Positions 1-53,871 of a DNA stretch of 64,000 bases are shown here, one piece after another (the stretch's first letter is position 1; the number at the start of each line of letters is the position of its first letter). Position numbers and translations under genes: made by a program. The stretch is taken from NCBI RefSeq assembly GCF_056746865.1, contig NZ_CM163382.1. One strand, given 5' to 3'. Below the pieces are notes generated by a model. That model was not told the DNA's origin. It saw only the letters and a list, made by a program, of their open reading frames with translations, and ran no database searches.

Positions 1-40
1 TCGATGTCAGCAGGTAGGCAAACCACCATTCTAAGGTCAT
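1..40 (-). CDS. rhtB: Threonine/homoserine lactone exporter RhtB, 5' end only (start codon at 38-40, gene runs off the window edge)
   Basis: Reverse-complement of bases 1-40 translates MTLEWWFAYLLTS, matching the RhtB N-terminus; divergent from pldB as in E. coli. Confidence 0.6.
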   Translation of the reverse strand, partial: MTLEWWFAYLLTS

Positions 41-150
41 GATGAACTCCCGGTGTGTCTATTTTTGTGCCACAATACGCTACTGTCGCAGCGTTGTGTC
101 AGGCACGCTTAAAAAAACGATTTTACGTGGTTTAAGAGGCAGATTACCCG

Positions 151-1173
151 ATGTTTCAGCAGCAAAAAGACTGGGAAACAAGAGAAAACGCGTTTGCTGC
201 TTTTACCATGGGACCGCTGACTGATTTCTGGCGTCAGCGAGATGAAGCAGAGTTTACTGGTGTGGATGACATTCCGGTGCGCTTTGTCCGTTTTCGCGCA
301 CAGCACCATGACCGGGTGGTAGTCATCTGCCCGGGGCGTATTGAGAGCTACGTAAAATATGCGGAACTGGCCTACGACCTGTTCCATTTGGGGTTTGATG
401 TCTTAATCATCGACCATCGCGGGCAGGGACGTTCCGGTCGCCTGTTAGCCGATCCGCATCTCGGGCATGTTAATCGCTTTAATGATTATGTTGATGATCT
501 GGCGGCATTCTGGCAACAGGAGGTTCAGCCCGGTCCGTGGCGTAAACGCTTTATACTGGCGCACTCGATGGGCGGTGCGATCTCCACATTATTTCTGCAA
601 CGCCATCCAGGTGTATGTGACGCCATTGCGCTAACTGCGCCAATGTTTGGGATCGTGATTCGTATGCCGTCATTTATGGCACGGCAGATCCTCAACTGGG
701 CCGAAGCGCATCCACGTTTCCGCGATGGCTATGCAATAGGCACCGGGCGCTGGCGCGCGTTGCCGTTTGCTATCAACGTACTGACCCACAGCAGACAGCG
801 ATATCGACGTAACTTACGCTTTTATGCTGATGACCCAACGATTCGCGTCGGTGGGCCGACCTACCATTGGGTACGCGAAAGTATTCTGGCTGGCGAACAG
901 GTGTTAGCCGGTGCGGGTGATGACGCCACGCCAACGCTTCTCTTACAAGCTGAAGAGGAACGCGTGGTGGATAACCGCATGCATGACCGTTTTTGTGAAC
1001 TCCGCACCGCTGCGGGCCATCCTGTCGAAGGAGGACGGCCGTTGGTAATTAAAGGTGCGTACCATGAGATCCTTTTTGAAAAGGACGCAATGCGCTCAGT
1101 CGCGCTCCACGCTATCGTTGATTTTTTCAACAGGCATAACTCACCCAGCGGAAACCGCTCTACAGAGGTTTAA
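151..1173 (+). CDS. pldB: Lysophospholipase L2
   Basis: 340-aa ORF with alpha/beta-hydrolase HSMGG motif; sequence and size match E. coli PldB. Confidence 0.93.
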   Translation: MFQQQKDWETRENAFAAFTMGPLTDFWRQRDEAEFTGVDDIPVRFVRFRAQHHDRVVVICPGRIESYVKYAELAYDLFHLGFDVLIIDHRGQGRSGRLLADPHLGHVNRFNDYVDDLAAFWQQEVQPGPWRKRFILAHSMGGAISTLFLQRHPGVCDAIALTAPMFGIVIRMPSFMARQILNWAEAHPRFRDGYAIGTGRWRALPFAINVLTHSRQRYRRNLRFYADDPTIRVGGPTYHWVRESILAGEQVLAGAGDDATPTLLLQAEEERVVDNRMHDRFCELRTAAGHPVEGGRPLVIKGAYHEILFEKDAMRSVALHAIVDFFNRHNSPSGNRSTEV

Positions 1174-1180
1174 ATTTCTT

Positions 1181-1981
1181 ATGTACCAGGTTGTTGCGTC
1201 TGATTTAGATGGCACGTTACTTTCTCCCGACCATACGTTATCCCCTTACGCCAAAGAAACTCTGAAGCTGCTCACCGCGCGCGGCATCAACTTTGTGTTT
1301 GCGACCGGTCGTCACCACGTTGATGTGGGGCAAATTCGCGATAATTTGGAGATTAAGTCTTACATGATTACCTCCAATGGCGCGCGCGTTCACGATCTGG
1401 ATGGCAATCTGATTTTTGCTCATAACCTGGATCGCGACATTGCCAGCGATCTGTTTGGCGTAGTCAACGACAATCCGGACATCATTACTAACGTTTATCG
1501 CGACGACGAATGGTTTATGAATCGCCATCGCCCGGAAGAGATGCGCTTTTTTAAAGAAGCGGTGTTCAAATATGCGCTGTATGAGCCTGGATTACTGGAG
1601 CCGGAAGGCGTCAGCAAAGTGTTCTTCACCTGCGATTCCCATGAACAACTGCTGCCGCTGGAGCAGGCGATTAACGCTCGCTGGGGCGATCGCGTCAACG
1701 TCAGTTTCTCTACCTTAACCTGTCTGGAAGTGATGGCGGGCGGCGTGTCGAAAGGCCATGCGTTGGAAGCAGTGGCGAAGAAACTGGGCTACAGCCTGAA
1801 GGATTGTATTGCGTTTGGTGACGGGATGAACGACGCCGAAATGCTGTCGATGGCGGGGAAAGGCTGCATTATGGGCAGTGCGCACCAACGGCTGAAAGAT
1901 CTGCATCCGGAGCTGGAAGTGATTGGTACTAACGCCGAGGACGCAGTGCCGCATTATCTGCGTAAGCTCTATTTATCGTAA
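1181..1981 (+). CDS. yigL: HAD-family sugar-phosphate phosphatase YigL
   Basis: ORF track 1055-1981 begins inside pldB; real start is the ATG at 1181 (MYQVVASDLDGTLL, HAD motif I DxDGT), 7 nt after the pldB stop; 266 aa. Confidence 0.9.
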   Translation: MYQVVASDLDGTLLSPDHTLSPYAKETLKLLTARGINFVFATGRHHVDVGQIRDNLEIKSYMITSNGARVHDLDGNLIFAHNLDRDIASDLFGVVNDNPDIITNVYRDDEWFMNRHRPEEMRFFKEAVFKYALYEPGLLEPEGVSKVFFTCDSHEQLLPLEQAINARWGDRVNVSFSTLTCLEVMAGGVSKGHALEAVAKKLGYSLKDCIAFGDGMNDAEMLSMAGKGCIMGSAHQRLKDLHPELEVIGTNAEDAVPHYLRKLYLS

Positions 1982-2056
1982 TCGTTCTTTATTTGGTCAG
2001 TTGTCAACCTGATACTTCGCTACAATGGATACTCGTTAATCAAAGAGTTTTCCATT

Positions 2057-2956
2057 GTGGCGCTACTTATCATCACCACGATTCTGTGGGCCTTCTCCTT
2101 TAGCTTTTATGGCGAGTACCTTGCGGGGCACGTCGATAGCTATTTTGCGGTGCTGGTGCGCGTTGGCCTGGCGGCACTCGTTTTTCTGCCGTTTCTGCGT
2201 ACCCGTGGCAATAGCCTGAAAACGGTCGGCCTGTATATGCTGGTGGGCGCGATGCAGCTCGGCGTGATGTATATGCTGAGTTTTCGCGCCTATCTCTACC
2301 TGACGGTCTCCGAGCTGCTGCTGTTCACCGTACTGACGCCGCTCTACATCACGTTGATTTATGACATCATGAGTCAGCGCCGTCTGCGCTGGGGCTATGC
2401 TTTTAGCGCCTTGTTGGCGGTGATTGGTGCCGGGATTATTCGCTATGATCAGGTCACCGACCACTTCTGGACTGGCCTGCTGCTGGTGCAGCTCTCCAAT
2501 ATCACTTTTGCCATCGGCATGGTGGGTTACAAACGTCTGATGGAAACTCGCCCGATGCCGCAGCATAACGCCTTTGCGTGGTTCTATCTTGGCGCGTTCC
2601 TGGTGGCGGTGATTGCATGGTTCTTGCTGGGAAATGCGCAGAAAATGCCACAAACCACGCTGCAATGGGGCATTCTGGTGTTTCTTGGCGTGGTGGCTTC
2701 CGGGATTGGCTACTTTATGTGGAACTACGGCGCAACCCAAGTAGACGCCGGAACGCTGGGCATTATGAATAATATGCACGTTCCGGCAGGGCTGCTGGTA
2801 AACCTGGCTATCTGGCACCAACAGCCGCACTGGCCAACGTTTATTACAGGCGCGCTGGTGATCCTGGCCTCACTGTGGGTGCATCGTAAGTGGGTCGCTC
2901 CGCGCTCTTCACAAACGGCAGATGATCGCAGGCGTGATTGCGCGCTGAGCGAATAA
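2057..2956 (+). CDS. yigM: Inner-membrane EamA/DMT-family transporter (biotin uptake, BioP)
   Basis: 299-aa hydrophobic ORF with GTG start; matches E. coli YigM. Confidence 0.85.
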
Positions 2957-10602: not shown

Positions 10603-12845
<2,243 letters not shown>

Positions 12846-26318: not shown

Positions 26319-27860
<1,542 letters not shown>

Positions 27861-27928
27861 CCTTAAAGAATCGTTCTTTGAAGTGCTCACACAGATTGTC
27901 TGATGAAAATGAGCAGTAAAACCTCTAC

Positions 27929-28005
<77 letters not shown>

Positions 28006-28047
28006 AATTTGCACCGCAAATTTGAAGAGGTTTTAACTACATGTTAT

Positions 28048-28123
28048 GGGGCTATAGCTCAGCTGGGAGAGCGCCTGCTTTGCACGCAGGAGGTCTGCGG
28101 TTCGATCCCGCATAGCTCCACCA
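28048..28123 (+). tRNA. alaT: tRNA-Ala (TGC anticodon)
   Basis: GGGGCTATAGCTCAGCTGGGAGAGC...CTTTGCA...GCTCCACCA in the 16S-23S spacer. Confidence 0.95.
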
Positions 28124-28306
28124 TCTCTGTAGTGATTAAATAAAAAATACTTCAGAGTGTACCTGCAAAGGTTCACTGCGAAGTTTTGCTCTTTAAAAAT
28201 CTGGATCAAGCTGAAAATTGAAACACTGAACAACGAAAGTTGTTCGTGAGTCTCTCAAATTTTCGCAACACGATGATGAATCGAAAGAAACATCTTCGGG
28301 TTGTGA

Positions 28307-31208
<2,902 letters not shown>

Positions 31209-31300
31209 ACAACGCCGAAGCTGTTTTGGCGGATTGAGAGAAGATTTTCAGCCTGATACAGATTAAATCAGAACGCAGAAGCGGTCTGATAAACAGAATT

Positions 31301-31420
31301 TGCCTGGCGGCCTTAGCGCGGTGGTCCCACCTGACCCCATGCCGAACTCAGAAGTGAAACGCCGTAGCGCCGATGGTAGTGTGGGGTCTCCCCATGCGAG
31401 AGTAGGGAACTGCCAGGCAT
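31301..31420 (+). rRNA. rrfA: 5S ribosomal RNA
   Basis: TGCCTGGCGGCC...GGGAACTGCCAGGCAT, 120 nt. Confidence 0.97.
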
Positions 31421-40367: not shown

Positions 40368-40514
40368 GATTCGCCTGAACATGCCCTTTTTTCGTAAGTA
40401 AGCAACATAAGCTGTCACGTTTTGTGATGGCTATTAGAAATTCCTATGCAACAACTGAAAAAAAATTACAAAAAGTGCTTTCTGAACTGAACAAAAAAGA
40501 GTAAAGTTAGTCGC

Positions 40515-40623
40515 GTAGGGTACAGAGGTAAGATGTTCTATCTTTCAGACCTTTTACTTCACGTAATCGGATTTGGCTGAATATTTTAGCCGCCCCAGTC
40601 AGTAATGACTGGGGCGTTTTTTA
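40515..40623 (+). ncRNA. spf: Spot 42 small regulatory RNA
   Basis: GTAGGGTACAGAGGTAAGATGTTCTATCTTTCAGACCTTTTACTTCACGTAATCGGATTTGGCTG... ending in terminator GCCCCAGTCAGTAATGACTGGGGCGTTTTTT; recognised by sequence. Confidence 0.92.
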
Positions 40624-41651: not shown

Positions 41652-41896
41652 ATAGAGCGAGGACGCTAACAGGAACAATGACTCAGGATGAGGGTCAGGA
41701 GCGCCAGGAGGCGAAGACAGAGGATTGTCAGGAAGACAAACGTCCGGAGACGTAATTAAACGGAAATGGAATCAACACGGATTGTTCCGGCTAATGGAAA
41801 AACAGGGTGTGTTGGCGGCCTGCAAGGATTGTAAGACCCGTTAAGGGTTATGAGTCAGGAAAAAAGGCGACAGAGTAATCTGTCGCCTTTTTTCTT
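41652..41896 (+). ncRNA. csrC: CsrC small RNA (CsrA-sequestering)
   Basis: ATAGAGCGAGGACGCTAACAGGAACAATGACTCAGGATGAGGGTCAGGAGCGCCAGGAGG...; dense AGGA/CAGGA motifs; intrinsic terminator GGCGACAGAGTAATCTGTCGCCTTTTTT at 3' end. Confidence 0.88.
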
Positions 41897-41962
41897 TGCT
41901 TGCTTTCTGTTAGATTCCGCCGCAAATCTATACTGAATAAAACGGCTAAAAGACGAACCATT

Positions 41963-48582: not shown

Positions 48583-48720
48583 AGCGAAATCTGTGCCAAC
48601 TTTTAAATTGCCCCTAAAAGGCGTTATCATGCTTAACATCGTGCAAAAGGGCTGCACCATGATATGAATGTTGCACCAATATAGTGCTTCAATGGAAACA
48701 TTAAGCACCATATTGGTGCA
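48583..48720 (-). promoter_or_regulatory. glnAp2 sigma54 promoter (TTGGCACAGATTTCGCT at 48583-48599, minus strand) with upstream NtrC enhancer sites (48672-48687 and 48705-48720)
   Basis: -24 GG / -12 GC element on the glnA strand; palindromes TGCACCAATATAGTGC and GCACCATATTGGTGCA further upstream. Confidence 0.8.
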
Positions 48721-48871
48721 ATGACCTTTGGATAACCCTTTTTATGCTCCGTGAAAGCGATCACAAAGGGACTCTGCAATACTTGTTTGCGGAGGATGTT
48801 TGTGATCCTGTTTTGTAGTGCGATTAATCCGTGTACAATAACGCGCTATTTCTAATGCCTGAGGCAAAGTT

Positions 48872-51629: not shown

Positions 51630-53871
<2,242 letters not shown>

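What the first reader, a model, noticed from the sequence alone, without database searches (positions are those of the whole stretch)
1055..1200. pldB-yigL junction: tight coupling and a reported sRNA (SgrS) target region
yigL starts 7 nt after the pldB stop, so the two are almost certainly co-transcribed. The pldB-yigL transcript has been reported to be stabilised by SgrS base-pairing within the pldB 3' coding region; this places that site in the last part of pldB here, but I cannot pinpoint the exact pairing from sequence alone.
Basis: established knowledge. Interest (0 to 1): 0.3.

Follow-up and report, generated by a model that had tools for sequence, protein, structure and literature searches.

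The report
Known SgrS pairing site in pldB-yigL

Summary
pldB is at 151-1173 and yigL at 1181-1981, on the same strand, 7 nt apart. No promoter-like or terminator-like site lies between them.

SgrS nt 168-179 (GUGUGACUGAGU) forms 12 contiguous base pairs with window 1094-1105 (GCUCAGUCGCGC). An IntaRNA-like calculation gives about -13.5 kcal/mol; the next best site in 700-1400 is -7.9. A second short helix (SgrS 184-188 with 1084-1088) extends the duplex to the published pldB +935-955, which is window 1085-1105. [quoted passage not shown]

Energy alone is only moderately distinctive: 4 of 240 shuffles match it, and it ranks 4th in the 64-kb window. Conservation and the literature are what settle it.
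- The site is present in all 43 Enterobacteriaceae-type loci among 80 Enterobacterales genomes.
- Variation inside it almost always preserves pairing.
- The cognate Klebsiella SgrS/pldB pair gives the same duplex.
- At least 4,129 of 5,426 complete E. coli genomes carry the surrounding 51 nt exactly.

Beyond the finding, window 1057-1105 is the most synonymously constrained stretch of pldB. It includes a conserved hairpin just 5' of the duplex. The site is absent from Yersinia, Serratia, Pectobacterium and other outgroups.

Verdict: already known, low interest.

The parts
151..1173 (+). pldB CDS (lysophospholipase L2, 340 aa; TAA stop at 1171-1173)
   Evidence: ORF list; RefSeq annotation of identical genomes; NCBIfam NF008019, 660 bits
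1174..1180 (+). 7-nt pldB-yigL spacer (AUUUCUU)
   Evidence: Sequence. The spacer length varies from 7 to about 60 nt in other Enterobacterales.
1181..1981 (+). yigL CDS (sugar/pyridoxal-phosphate phosphatase, HAD-IIB Cof type, 266 aa)
   Evidence: NCBIfam NF008213, 552 bits
1164..1167 (+). Probable yigL Shine-Dalgarno sequence (GAGG), 13 nt upstream of the ATG and inside the last pldB codons
   Evidence: Read directly from the sequence. This is an inference and was not tested.
1094..1105 (+). Core SgrS pairing site, 5'-GCUCAGUCGCGC-3'. It forms 12 contiguous pairs (9 Watson-Crick and 3 G.U) with SgrS nt 168-179. C1097 pairs with G176 and C1095 with G178.
   Evidence: IntaRNA-like dynamic programme: hybridisation -19.0, total -13.5 kcal/mol, top hit in 700-1400. 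Shuffles. Conservation. The cognate Klebsiella pair gives the same duplex.
1085..1105 (+). Published SgrS binding site, pldB +935-955, converted to window coordinates
   Evidence: PMC5286369, citing Papenfort 2013. The bipartite duplex, 1084-1088 plus 1094-1105, is reproduced by duplexfold: -25.8 kcal/mol here and -30.4 with the Salmonella-type GCC codon.
1098..1105 (+). Reported RNase E cleavage site (pldB +948-955) that the SgrS duplex occludes
   Evidence: Coordinates from PMC5286369. The site lies wholly inside the 12-bp duplex. Cleavage cannot be tested here.
1057..1093 (+). 5' flank under extreme synonymous constraint (GCGUACCAUGAGAUCCUUUUUGAAAAGGACGCAAUGC). It contains a 6-bp hairpin, 1070-1075 paired with 1080-1085, with loop UUGA.
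   Evidence: Lowest synonymous entropy in the whole of pldB: 0.15 bits against a gene mean of 1.14. Codon table. The hairpin is 100% paired in 43 site-bearing taxa, with one U-A to C-G double change. Across 79 Enterobacterales, pair 1074-1081 reads UA 41, GC 16, CG 1, other 21. Its function is inferred.
1117..1131 (+). Small hairpin GUUGA-UUUUU-UCAAC with a U-rich loop, 12 nt 3' of the duplex
   Evidence: -4.6 kcal/mol. Pair 1119-1129 covaries: CG 20, UA 12, UG 4, other 7. Its function is unknown.
990..990 (+). Position matching the 5' end of the processed 'pldB-yigL species (-191 relative to the yigL ATG). It is the first U of a U5 tract.
   Evidence: The -191..+50 E. coli yigL RNA used in bioRxiv 10.1101/221978; sequence. 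Local codons are not unusually conserved. The conversion of this position to window coordinates is an inference.

Best explanation
This is the E. coli pldB-yigL operon, and it carries the experimentally established target site of the Hfq-dependent small RNA SgrS.

The mechanism below is taken from the literature and was not tested here. pldB and yigL are transcribed together. RNase E cuts inside pldB. In the published E. coli constructs the resulting 5' end is 191 nt upstream of the yigL ATG, which is about window 990. The resulting 'pldB-yigL fragment is no longer covered by ribosomes translating pldB. A further RNase E cut at pldB +948-955 (window 1098-1105) normally destroys it. Under glucose-phosphate stress, SgrR induces SgrS. 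The SgrS seed pairs with window 1085-1105 and covers that cleavage site. yigL mRNA therefore accumulates and more YigL phosphatase is made, without any change in translation initiation. YigL dephosphorylates the accumulated sugar phosphates so that they can be exported.

Shown here:
- the gene arrangement;
- the exact duplex (SgrS 168-179 with 1094-1105, plus a short second helix, SgrS 184-188 with 1084-1088);
- that this duplex is the energetically best one in the region;
- that it is conserved across Enterobacteriaceae, with variation that preserves pairing.

Inferred, not shown: the nearly invariant 5' flank and its hairpin (1057-1093) belong to the same module, most plausibly as an RNase E and/or Hfq docking platform.
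For: Gene order, identity and the 7-nt gap come.

SgrS was verified by Rfam RF00534 (228.8 bits). Its seed is identical in both E. coli sgrS alleles and in Klebsiella.

The energy scan gives SgrS 168-179 with 1094-1105 at a total of -13.5 kcal/mol. The runner-up is -7.9. The shuffle mean is -7.0 with sd 1.9, and 4 of 240 shuffles are as good. The site ranks 4th of all sites on both strands of the 64-kb window; the three better-scoring candidates were not examined further.

The predicted site coincides with the published one. pldB +935-955 is the SgrS site and +948-955 the RNase E site (PMC5286369). The mechanism is described in PMC4021124 and PMC4098024. Activation of E. coli yigL fusions at low SgrS levels is reported in bioRxiv 10.1101/221978.

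Conservation: the site is present in 43 of 80 Enterobacterales loci, covering all the Escherichia, Salmonella, Citrobacter, Enterobacter, Klebsiella, Kluyvera, Raoultella and Kosakonia-type genomes. At the four 4-fold-degenerate positions inside the duplex, 11 of 12 variant states keep pairing (A1098G, C1101U, G1104A). Neighbouring 4-fold sites vary freely, transversions included.

The O157:H7 polymorphism C1101U turns a G-C pair into G.U. G1104A variants break the local mini-hairpin but strengthen SgrS pairing.

The cognate K. pneumoniae SgrS and pldB give the identical top-ranked duplex at -13.0 kcal/mol.

A genome 100% identical to the window over 1-2400 (strain 118UI) carries sgrR-sgrS. 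The 51-nt element matches in 5,424 of 5,426 complete E. coli genomes, and at least 4,129 of them carry it exactly.
Against: Thermodynamics alone is not decisive. About 2% of shuffles do as well, and three other places in the window score slightly better.

In vitro binding of SgrS to yigL RNA is reported as barely detectable (bioRxiv 10.1101/221978).

The reported cleavage site, AGUCGCGC, is not the AU-rich sequence typical of RNase E sites. That typical preference is stated from general knowledge and was not checked here.

The primary paper (Papenfort et al. 2013, PMC4151517) is not held in the library. Its coordinates were therefore taken second-hand.

No transcript, cleavage or Hfq data can be generated with these tools.

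My interaction calculator is a self-written IntaRNA-like heuristic, not IntaRNA itself.
Confidence: 0.9

Rival explanations
1. The complementarity is a chance match, and SgrS does not regulate yigL through this sequence in this strain.
For: 4 of 240 dinucleotide shuffles reach the same energy. Three other sites in the 64-kb window score slightly better. In vitro binding is reported as weak.
Against: The site coincides with the experimentally mapped one. It is conserved at synonymous positions across at least 10 genera, with changes that preserve pairing. The same duplex ranks top for the cognate Klebsiella pair. The sequence here is identical to that of E. coli strains in which activation was measured.
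Confidence: 0.03
2. SgrS activates yigL by opening an inhibitory structure around the yigL ribosome-binding site (anti-antisense translational activation), not by blocking RNase E.
For: In the MFE fold of 990-1230, 1083-1091 pairs with 1192-1201 in early yigL codons, a GACGCAA/UUGCGUC match. SgrS binding would compete with that helix.
Against: The fold is no more stable than shuffles (z = -0.46). Position 1089 varies among A, U and C. In the one outgroup compared, Salmonella arizonae, C at 1089 faces an unchanged U at 1195, so there is no sign of compensation; this was not tabulated across taxa. The site lies 76-96 nt upstream of the ATG. The literature states that activation is independent of translation (PMC4021124).
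Confidence: 0.03
3. The strong nucleotide conservation of 1057-1105 reflects an overlapping reading frame: an ATG at 1064 in the yigL frame, giving an N-terminally extended YigL or an upstream ORF. On this view it is not an RNA-level element.
For: In E. coli the frame from ATG 1064 is open into yigL. This is the source of the mechanical 308-aa ORF at 1055-1981. An AAGGUG lies 6 nt upstream. 39 of 43 site-bearing taxa keep the frame open for at least 28 codons.
Against: The frame ends at different places and in different registers relative to yigL: in-frame, 8 to 15 nt before the ATG, or +23/+28 inside yigL. It is closed at codon 14 in 4 site-bearing taxa. The start codon is ACG in two Citrobacter genomes. 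Its predicted peptide is not conserved beyond residue 14. pldB third positions vary freely from 1107 onward.
Confidence: 0.03
4. The constrained 5' flank (1057-1093) serves a factor unrelated to SgrS, such as another small RNA, CsrA, or a DNA-level site. It is merely adjacent to the SgrS site.
For: The flank is more invariant than the duplex itself. It contains a GGA motif and a near-palindrome. A related hairpin with a G-C pair at 1074-1081 exists in Yersinia and Serratia, which lack the SgrS site.
Against: The invariant form (CUU...AAG) occurs in all 43 taxa that have the SgrS site and in none of those that lack it. RNase E crosslinking is reported just 5' of the cleavage site and overlapping the SgrS site (PMC5286369). 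The second helix of the SgrS duplex reaches into it, at 1084-1088.
Confidence: 0.12

Closest known systems
SgrS-'pldB-yigL interaction of Salmonella and E. coli (Papenfort et al. 2013, Cell 153:426; summarised in PMC4021124, PMC4098024 and PMC5286369)
   Same: Same genes, same position (pldB +935-955) and same SgrS seed nucleotides. The 12-nt core is identical to the Salmonella arizonae and K. pneumoniae sequences. This window is simply an instance of it.
   Different: Nothing material. In E. coli the Ala codon at 1087-1089 is GCA rather than the GCC of the Salmonella arizonae locus compared here (L025). The second helix is therefore 5 bp instead of 7 bp, and the hybrid is about 4.6 kcal/mol weaker.
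RydC-cfa mRNA activation
   Same: This is the other described case in which an Hfq-dependent sRNA stabilises an mRNA by masking an RNase E site far upstream of the start codon, independently of translation (PMC4021124, PMC6354806).
   Different: A different sRNA and a different target. The cfa site lies in a 5' UTR of a primary transcript, not in the coding region of an upstream cistron that must first be processed.
SgrS-ptsG repression
   Same: It uses the same conserved SgrS region, including G176 and G178 (PMC4021124). It also depends on Hfq and belongs to the same stress regulon.
   Different: ptsG pairing covers the ribosome-binding site and represses translation, leading to RNase E-dependent decay. 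At pldB the duplex lies 76-96 nt from the yigL AUG and protects the mRNA. The pldB duplex also uses nt 168-173, which lie outside the 13-nt invariant core CUGAGUAuUGGUG (PMC2760817; Rfam consensus).

Membership tests
SgrS target site on 'pldB-yigL mRNA | [quoted passage not shown] | tested here: met
   12 contiguous pairs between SgrS 168-179 and 1094-1105, with C1097-G176 and C1095-G178. Total energy is -13.5 kcal/mol, the best in 700-1400.
SgrS target site on 'pldB-yigL mRNA | Located at pldB +935-955, in the 3' coding region upstream of yigL | tested here: met
   pldB starts at 151, so +935-955 is window 1085-1105. The predicted bipartite duplex spans 1084-1105.
SgrS target site on 'pldB-yigL mRNA | sgrR-sgrS present in the same genome | tested here: met
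   Met by proxy. Strain 118UI, which is 100% identical to window 1-2400, carries sgrR and sgrT/sgrS. 5,399 of 5,426 E. coli genomes carry sgrS. The window itself does not contain sgrS.
SgrS target site on 'pldB-yigL mRNA | Site conserved in the species where the mechanism was demonstrated (Salmonella, E. coli) | tested here: met
   The core is identical in Salmonella arizonae, E. coli K-12-like strains and O157:H7, with one G-C to G.U change in O157:H7.
SgrS target site on 'pldB-yigL mRNA | RNase E-generated 5'-monophosphate intermediate, and an RNase E cleavage site under the duplex | not testable with these tools
   Supported only by the literature. It needs 5' RACE and in vitro cleavage assays.
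SgrS target site on 'pldB-yigL mRNA | Hfq-dependent, translation-independent increase in yigL mRNA and YigL protein | not testable with these tools
   Literature only (PMC4021124; bioRxiv 10.1101/221978).
Dicistronic pldB-yigL operon | Same strand, short spacer, and no intervening terminator or promoter | tested here: met
   7-nt spacer. The consensus scan found no promoter-like site and only two terminator-like matches, neither of them between the genes.
Dicistronic pldB-yigL operon | A single transcript covering both genes | not testable with these tools
   Reported in the literature.
YigL (HAD-IIB Cof-type sugar/pyridoxal-phosphate phosphatase) | Full-length match to the equivalog model above its curated cut-off | tested here: met
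   NF008213 at 551.7 bits against a cut-off of 386.
PldB (lysophospholipase L2) | Full-length match to the equivalog model above its curated cut-off | tested here: met
   NF008019 at 660.4 bits against a cut-off of 362.

The most novel reading that the evidence does not exclude
The SgrS duplex may be only the 3' third of a larger cis-element of about 75 nt (window 1057-1131). That element would comprise a nearly invariant hairpin-containing 5' flank, which is the most synonymously constrained part of pldB, together with a covarying U-loop hairpin 3' of the site. On this reading the element acts as the RNase E/Hfq docking platform that makes this weak duplex a high-priority SgrS target in vivo. 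The whole module would be an innovation of Enterobacteriaceae in the strict sense. It is absent from Yersinia, Serratia, Pectobacterium, Dickeya, Hafnia, Erwinia and Pantoea, even though those genera have SgrS and a pldB-yigL operon. I could not check whether the primary paper already describes this flank.
Probability: 0.3. Interest if true: 0.35.

Novelty: already known. Interest (0 to 1): 0.15.

Why it matters
The SgrS-yigL case is the founding example of a small RNA that activates a gene by blocking RNase E on a decay intermediate. Recognising the site in a raw window shows that the annotation logic works, but it adds nothing new.

Two by-products are modestly useful.

1. A base-resolution map in window coordinates, with evidence that natural variation preserves pairing.
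2. The observation that the strongest synonymous constraint in pldB lies just 5' of the duplex, and that the site is confined to one family of Enterobacterales.

The first of these could help explain why yigL is a high-priority target in vivo despite very weak binding in vitro. The second suggests that reviews extrapolating the regulation to Yersinia should be checked.

Tried and rejected
1. RNA.duplexfold on full-length SgrS against 900-1200 gave meaningless duplexes of about 220 nt at -130 kcal/mol, because it ignores intramolecular structure. I replaced it with a self-written IntaRNA-like programme that adds hybridisation energy and accessibility.

2. The primary paper could not be read by DOI or PMC id. 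Its coordinates were taken from PMC5286369.

3. RNAalifold on 79 sequences did not recover the hairpins. Support for them rests on named-structure pair counts and is modest, with only two covarying pairs.

4. The MFE fold of the processed RNA, 990-1230, is no more stable than shuffles (z = -0.46). No global structure is claimed.

5. An overlapping-ORF explanation for the synonymous constraint was rejected.

6. An internal promoter for yigL was considered. There is no sigma-70-like match. The sigma-54-like match at 1210-1225 lies inside yigL, and the motif count is not above chance.

Proteus gave no Rfam SgrS hit next to its SgrR homologue. Absence of regulation in those genera is therefore inferred only from loss of the E. 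coli-type site.

8. The -191 processing position shows no special codon conservation.
Full report
**Observation.** The window's first 2.4 kb is E. coli chromosome. It is 100% identical to several complete genomes, strain 118UI among them, and is present in 5,425 of 5,426 complete E. coli genomes. RefSeq annotates rhtB, pldB, yigL and bioP under the match.

pldB is the 340-aa ORF at 151-1173 and ends in TAA at 1171-1173. yigL begins at ATG 1181 and ends at 1981. NCBIfam equivalog models confirm both proteins well above their cut-offs.

A consensus scan finds no promoter-like site in 1-2200 and no terminator-like site between the genes. This agrees with the dicistronic pldB-yigL mRNA described in the literature (PMC4021124, PMC4098024).

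**Obtaining SgrS.** sgrS is not in the window; the Rfam scan of all 64 kb does not find it. I recovered it from E. coli K-12, where Rfam RF00534 scores it at 228.8 bits over its full length. I also recovered it from strain 118UI, whose genome is identical to the window across the query.

E. coli has two sgrS alleles. They differ in the 3' part of sgrT and in the spacer and terminator sequences. The stretch CAUCAUGUGUGACUGAGUAUUGGUGU is identical in both.

**Locating the pairing.** No interaction-prediction binaries were available, and plain duplexfold on full-length RNAs is uninformative. I therefore wrote an IntaRNA-like dynamic programme. It sums nearest-neighbour hybridisation energy and the opening energies of both RNAs, taken from ViennaRNA unpaired probabilities.

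Scanning full-length SgrS against window 700-1400, the best interaction is SgrS nt 168-179 (5'-GUGUGACUGAGU-3') with window 1094-1105 (5'-GCUCAGUCGCGC-3'). It has 12 contiguous pairs, three of them G.U. Hybridisation energy is -19.0 and total energy -13.5 kcal/mol, with either sgrS allele. The runner-up is -7.9. C1097 and C1095 pair with G176 and G178. Mutating those two SgrS residues abolishes ptsG regulation (PMC4021124).

A second short helix, SgrS 184-188 with 1084-1088, gives a bipartite hybrid of -25.8 kcal/mol. With the Salmonella-type GCC codon at 1087-1089 this helix grows to 7 bp and the hybrid reaches -30.4.

**Agreement with the published site.** Waters et al. (PMC5286369) cite Papenfort et al. 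2013 and state that SgrS binds pldB at +935-955 and occludes an RNase E cleavage site at +948-955. With pldB starting at 151, these become window 1085-1105 and 1098-1105. The predicted bipartite duplex spans 1084-1105, and the cleavage site lies entirely under the 12-bp core.

The E. coli yigL RNA used by the Vanderpool laboratory runs from -191 to +50 relative to the yigL ATG (bioRxiv 10.1101/221978). That places the processed 5' end at about window 990, the first U of a U5 tract.

**Is it more than chance?** On energy alone, only moderately.
- In 240 dinucleotide-preserving shuffles of 900-1200, the best energy averages -7.0 (sd 1.9), against -12.1 for the real sequence in the same context. 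Four shuffles do as well.
- Across both strands of the whole 64-kb window, the site ranks 4th. I did not examine the three better-scoring candidates further.

This is the usual limit of sRNA target prediction. The verdict rests on conservation and on the experimental literature.

**Conservation.** A scan of one genome per species for YigL relatives returned 80 Enterobacterales loci. The motif GCGCUCAGUCGCGC is present in 43 of them: Escherichia, Salmonella, Citrobacter, Enterobacter, Lelliottia, Kosakonia, Klebsiella, Raoultella, Kluyvera, Pluralibacter, Trabulsiella and others. In these, PldB reads MRSVAL.

The motif is absent from Yersinia, Serratia, Pectobacterium, Dickeya, Brenneria, Hafnia, Erwinia, Pantoea, Edwardsiella, Buttiauxella and others, where PldB usually reads MRAEAL.

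Within the 38 distinct site-bearing sequences, the four 4-fold-degenerate third positions inside the duplex show 12 variant states, and 11 of them keep pairing:
- A1098G turns U-A into U.G.
- C1101U turns G-C into G.U.
- G1104A turns U.G into U-A.

By contrast, the adjacent 4-fold sites 1089, 1107 and 1113 vary freely, transversions included.

Inside E. coli, the 51 nt at 1057-1107 match in 5,424 of 5,426 genomes. At least 4,129 carry them exactly, and some of the remaining 1,295 matches are truncated alignments rather than real differences. The variants I inspected were C1101U in O157:H7 and G1104A in one strain, and both preserve pairing.

G1104A breaks the local mini-hairpin 1092-1095/1102-1105 but strengthens the SgrS duplex. 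This points to the intermolecular pairing as the selected feature.

A K. pneumoniae chromosome filed in the plasmid database supplied a co-resident test. Its own SgrS (Rfam 156.8 bits, seed identical) and its own pldB give the same 12-bp duplex as the top hit, at -13.0 kcal/mol.

With E. coli SgrS, predicted seed-region energies average -12.0 kcal/mol for site-bearing loci and -6.0 for the others.

**Mechanism.** Only the anatomy is shown here; the steps come from the literature. RNase E processes the dicistronic mRNA inside pldB. The resulting 'pldB-yigL fragment is free of pldB-translating ribosomes and is normally degraded through a further RNase E cut. Under glucose-phosphate stress SgrS, induced by SgrR and chaperoned by Hfq, pairs over that cut site and stabilises the fragment. 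YigL synthesis rises without any change in translation initiation. YigL then dephosphorylates the accumulated sugar phosphates so that they can be exported (PMC4021124, PMC4098024, PMC5286369).

In E. coli reporter assays, yigL is a high-priority target that is activated at low SgrS levels, even though in vitro binding is barely detectable.

**Beyond the finding.** A codon-aligned scan of synonymous entropy across the whole pldB gene in the 42 site-bearing genomes shows one clear minimum. Codons 303-317 (window 1057-1105) fall as low as 0.15 bits, against a gene mean of 1.14. The next independent minimum, 0.49, is at the start codon.

The most invariant part is not the duplex but its 5' flank, CAUGAGAUCCUUUUUGAAAAGGAC (1063-1086). 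That flank can form a 6-bp hairpin, 1070-1075 with 1080-1085, at -4.4 kcal/mol.
- The hairpin is 100% paired in all 43 site-bearing sequences, with one U-A to C-G double change in Phytobacter that costs a Lys-to-Glu substitution.
- Across 79 Enterobacterales, pair 1074-1081 reads UA 41, GC 16, CG 1 and unpaired 21.

A second hairpin 12 nt downstream of the duplex, 1117-1121 with 1127-1131 and a U5 loop, covaries at one pair: CG 20, UA 12, UG 4, other 7.

The support for these structures is modest. RNAalifold does not call them, and the processed RNA as a whole is no more stable than shuffles.

Waters et al. report RNase E crosslinking just 5' of the cleavage site and overlapping the SgrS site. 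The most economical reading is therefore that the flank is part of the RNase E and/or Hfq recognition platform. That is inference.

I rejected an overlapping-ORF explanation. The frame opening at ATG 1064 ends at inconsistent places and in inconsistent registers. It has ACG in two Citrobacter genomes, is closed at codon 14 in four site-bearing taxa, and is not conserved beyond residue 14.

**Comparison with what is known, and novelty.** This is the published SgrS-'pldB-yigL interaction itself, not a relative of it. All sequence-testable defining features are met. The RNA-biochemical features cannot be tested here.

The nearest mechanistic analogue is RydC-cfa. The same SgrS seed represses ptsG by a different route.

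The pldB duplex uses six nucleotides of the 13-nt invariant SgrS core, CUGAGUAuUGGUG (PMC2760817), plus six nucleotides 5' of it that vary across the wider family (Rfam consensus). This fits the restriction of the target site to Enterobacteriaceae in the strict sense. One review lists the regulation under Yersinia SgrS (PMC6232918). The E. coli-type site is not present in the seven Yersinia genomes examined, although a different and weaker candidate exists at -60..-44 in four of them. I could not obtain cognate SgrS sequences to test it.

**Verdict.** The feature is already known, and interest is low at 0.15. The only possibly new elements are the strongly constrained flank and the phylogenetic boundary. 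I could not check either against the primary paper, which is not held.

Noticed in passing
window 1057-1093: This stretch has the lowest synonymous-codon entropy in the whole of pldB: 0.15 bits against a mean of 1.14 in 42 Enterobacteriaceae genomes. It lies immediately 5' of the SgrS duplex and contains a conserved 6-bp hairpin (1070-1085). One compensatory U-A to C-G change there costs a Lys-to-Glu substitution.
   Followed up: partly
window 1117-1131: A small hairpin, GUUGA-UUUUU-UCAAC, lies 12 nt 3' of the SgrS site, with covariation at pair 1119-1129 (CG 20, UA 12). Yersinia has a different hairpin, UUGCGC-U6-GCGCAA, at the equivalent position. The U-rich loop fits the RNase E preference R-N|W-U-U, which I state from general knowledge.
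   Followed up: partly
loci L041, L043, L045, L046, L048-L066 and L068-L082 (37 non-Enterobacteriaceae-type Enterobacterales and outliers): The E. coli-type SgrS site is absent from Yersinia, Serratia, Pectobacterium, Dickeya, Hafnia, Erwinia, Pantoea, Buttiauxella and others, although pldB-yigL synteny is kept. Four Yersinia species have a weaker candidate containing UCAGUC at -60..-44 from the yigL ATG. It was not tested with cognate SgrS.
   Followed up: partly
window 1064-1180: An ATG at 1064, with AAGGUG 6 nt upstream, opens a frame that in E. coli runs uninterrupted into yigL. This is the source of the mechanical 308-aa ORF at 1055-1981. It is not conserved in end point, register or start codon across genera, so it is probably not a gene.
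   Followed up: yes
window 1210-1225: A sigma-54-like sequence, TGGCACGTTACTTTCT, with one mismatch to TGGCAC-N5-TTGCW, lies inside yigL codons 10-15. It may account for the weak RpoN genomic-SELEX peak listed as 'pldB > yigL' in PMC8743547. The motif count in the window is not above chance (298 against about 330 expected).
   Followed up: partly
L001:1501-1727 and L002:23275-23500 (sgrS of K-12 and strain 118UI): E. coli carries two sgrS alleles: 3,230 genomes are at least 99% identical to K-12, and 2,157 are 80-90% identical. They differ in the sgrT 3' end, the spacer and the terminator, but the seed is identical. In strain 118UI, setA is missing downstream of sgrS, and leuD follows directly.
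   Followed up: partly
window 1-2400 compared with the collections: Only 254 of 5,425 E. coli genomes are at least 99% identical to this stretch; the rest are 95-99%. The species-representative genome with 100% YigL identity is labelled Escherichia albertii NBRC 107761 (L003), although its DNA differs from the window. The lineage of the window was not resolved.
   Followed up: no
window 10957-11208, 26319-31418, 40505-40623, 41652-41905, 48683-48790, 53054-53176(-): Rfam gathering-threshold hits elsewhere in the window are: Erse sRNA; a complete rRNA operon with two tRNAs and StyR-44; Spot 42; CsrC; ES222; and isrC.
   Followed up: no
PLSDB records CP125156.1, NZ_OL790811.1, NZ_OL790696.1, NZ_CP141089.1: Several records filed as plasmids in the plasmid collection are whole chromosomes of 4-5.4 Mb, from K. 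pneumoniae, Proteus mirabilis and E. coli. This was useful here as a source of a co-resident sgrS/pldB pair, but it is a database artefact worth knowing about.
   Followed up: yes
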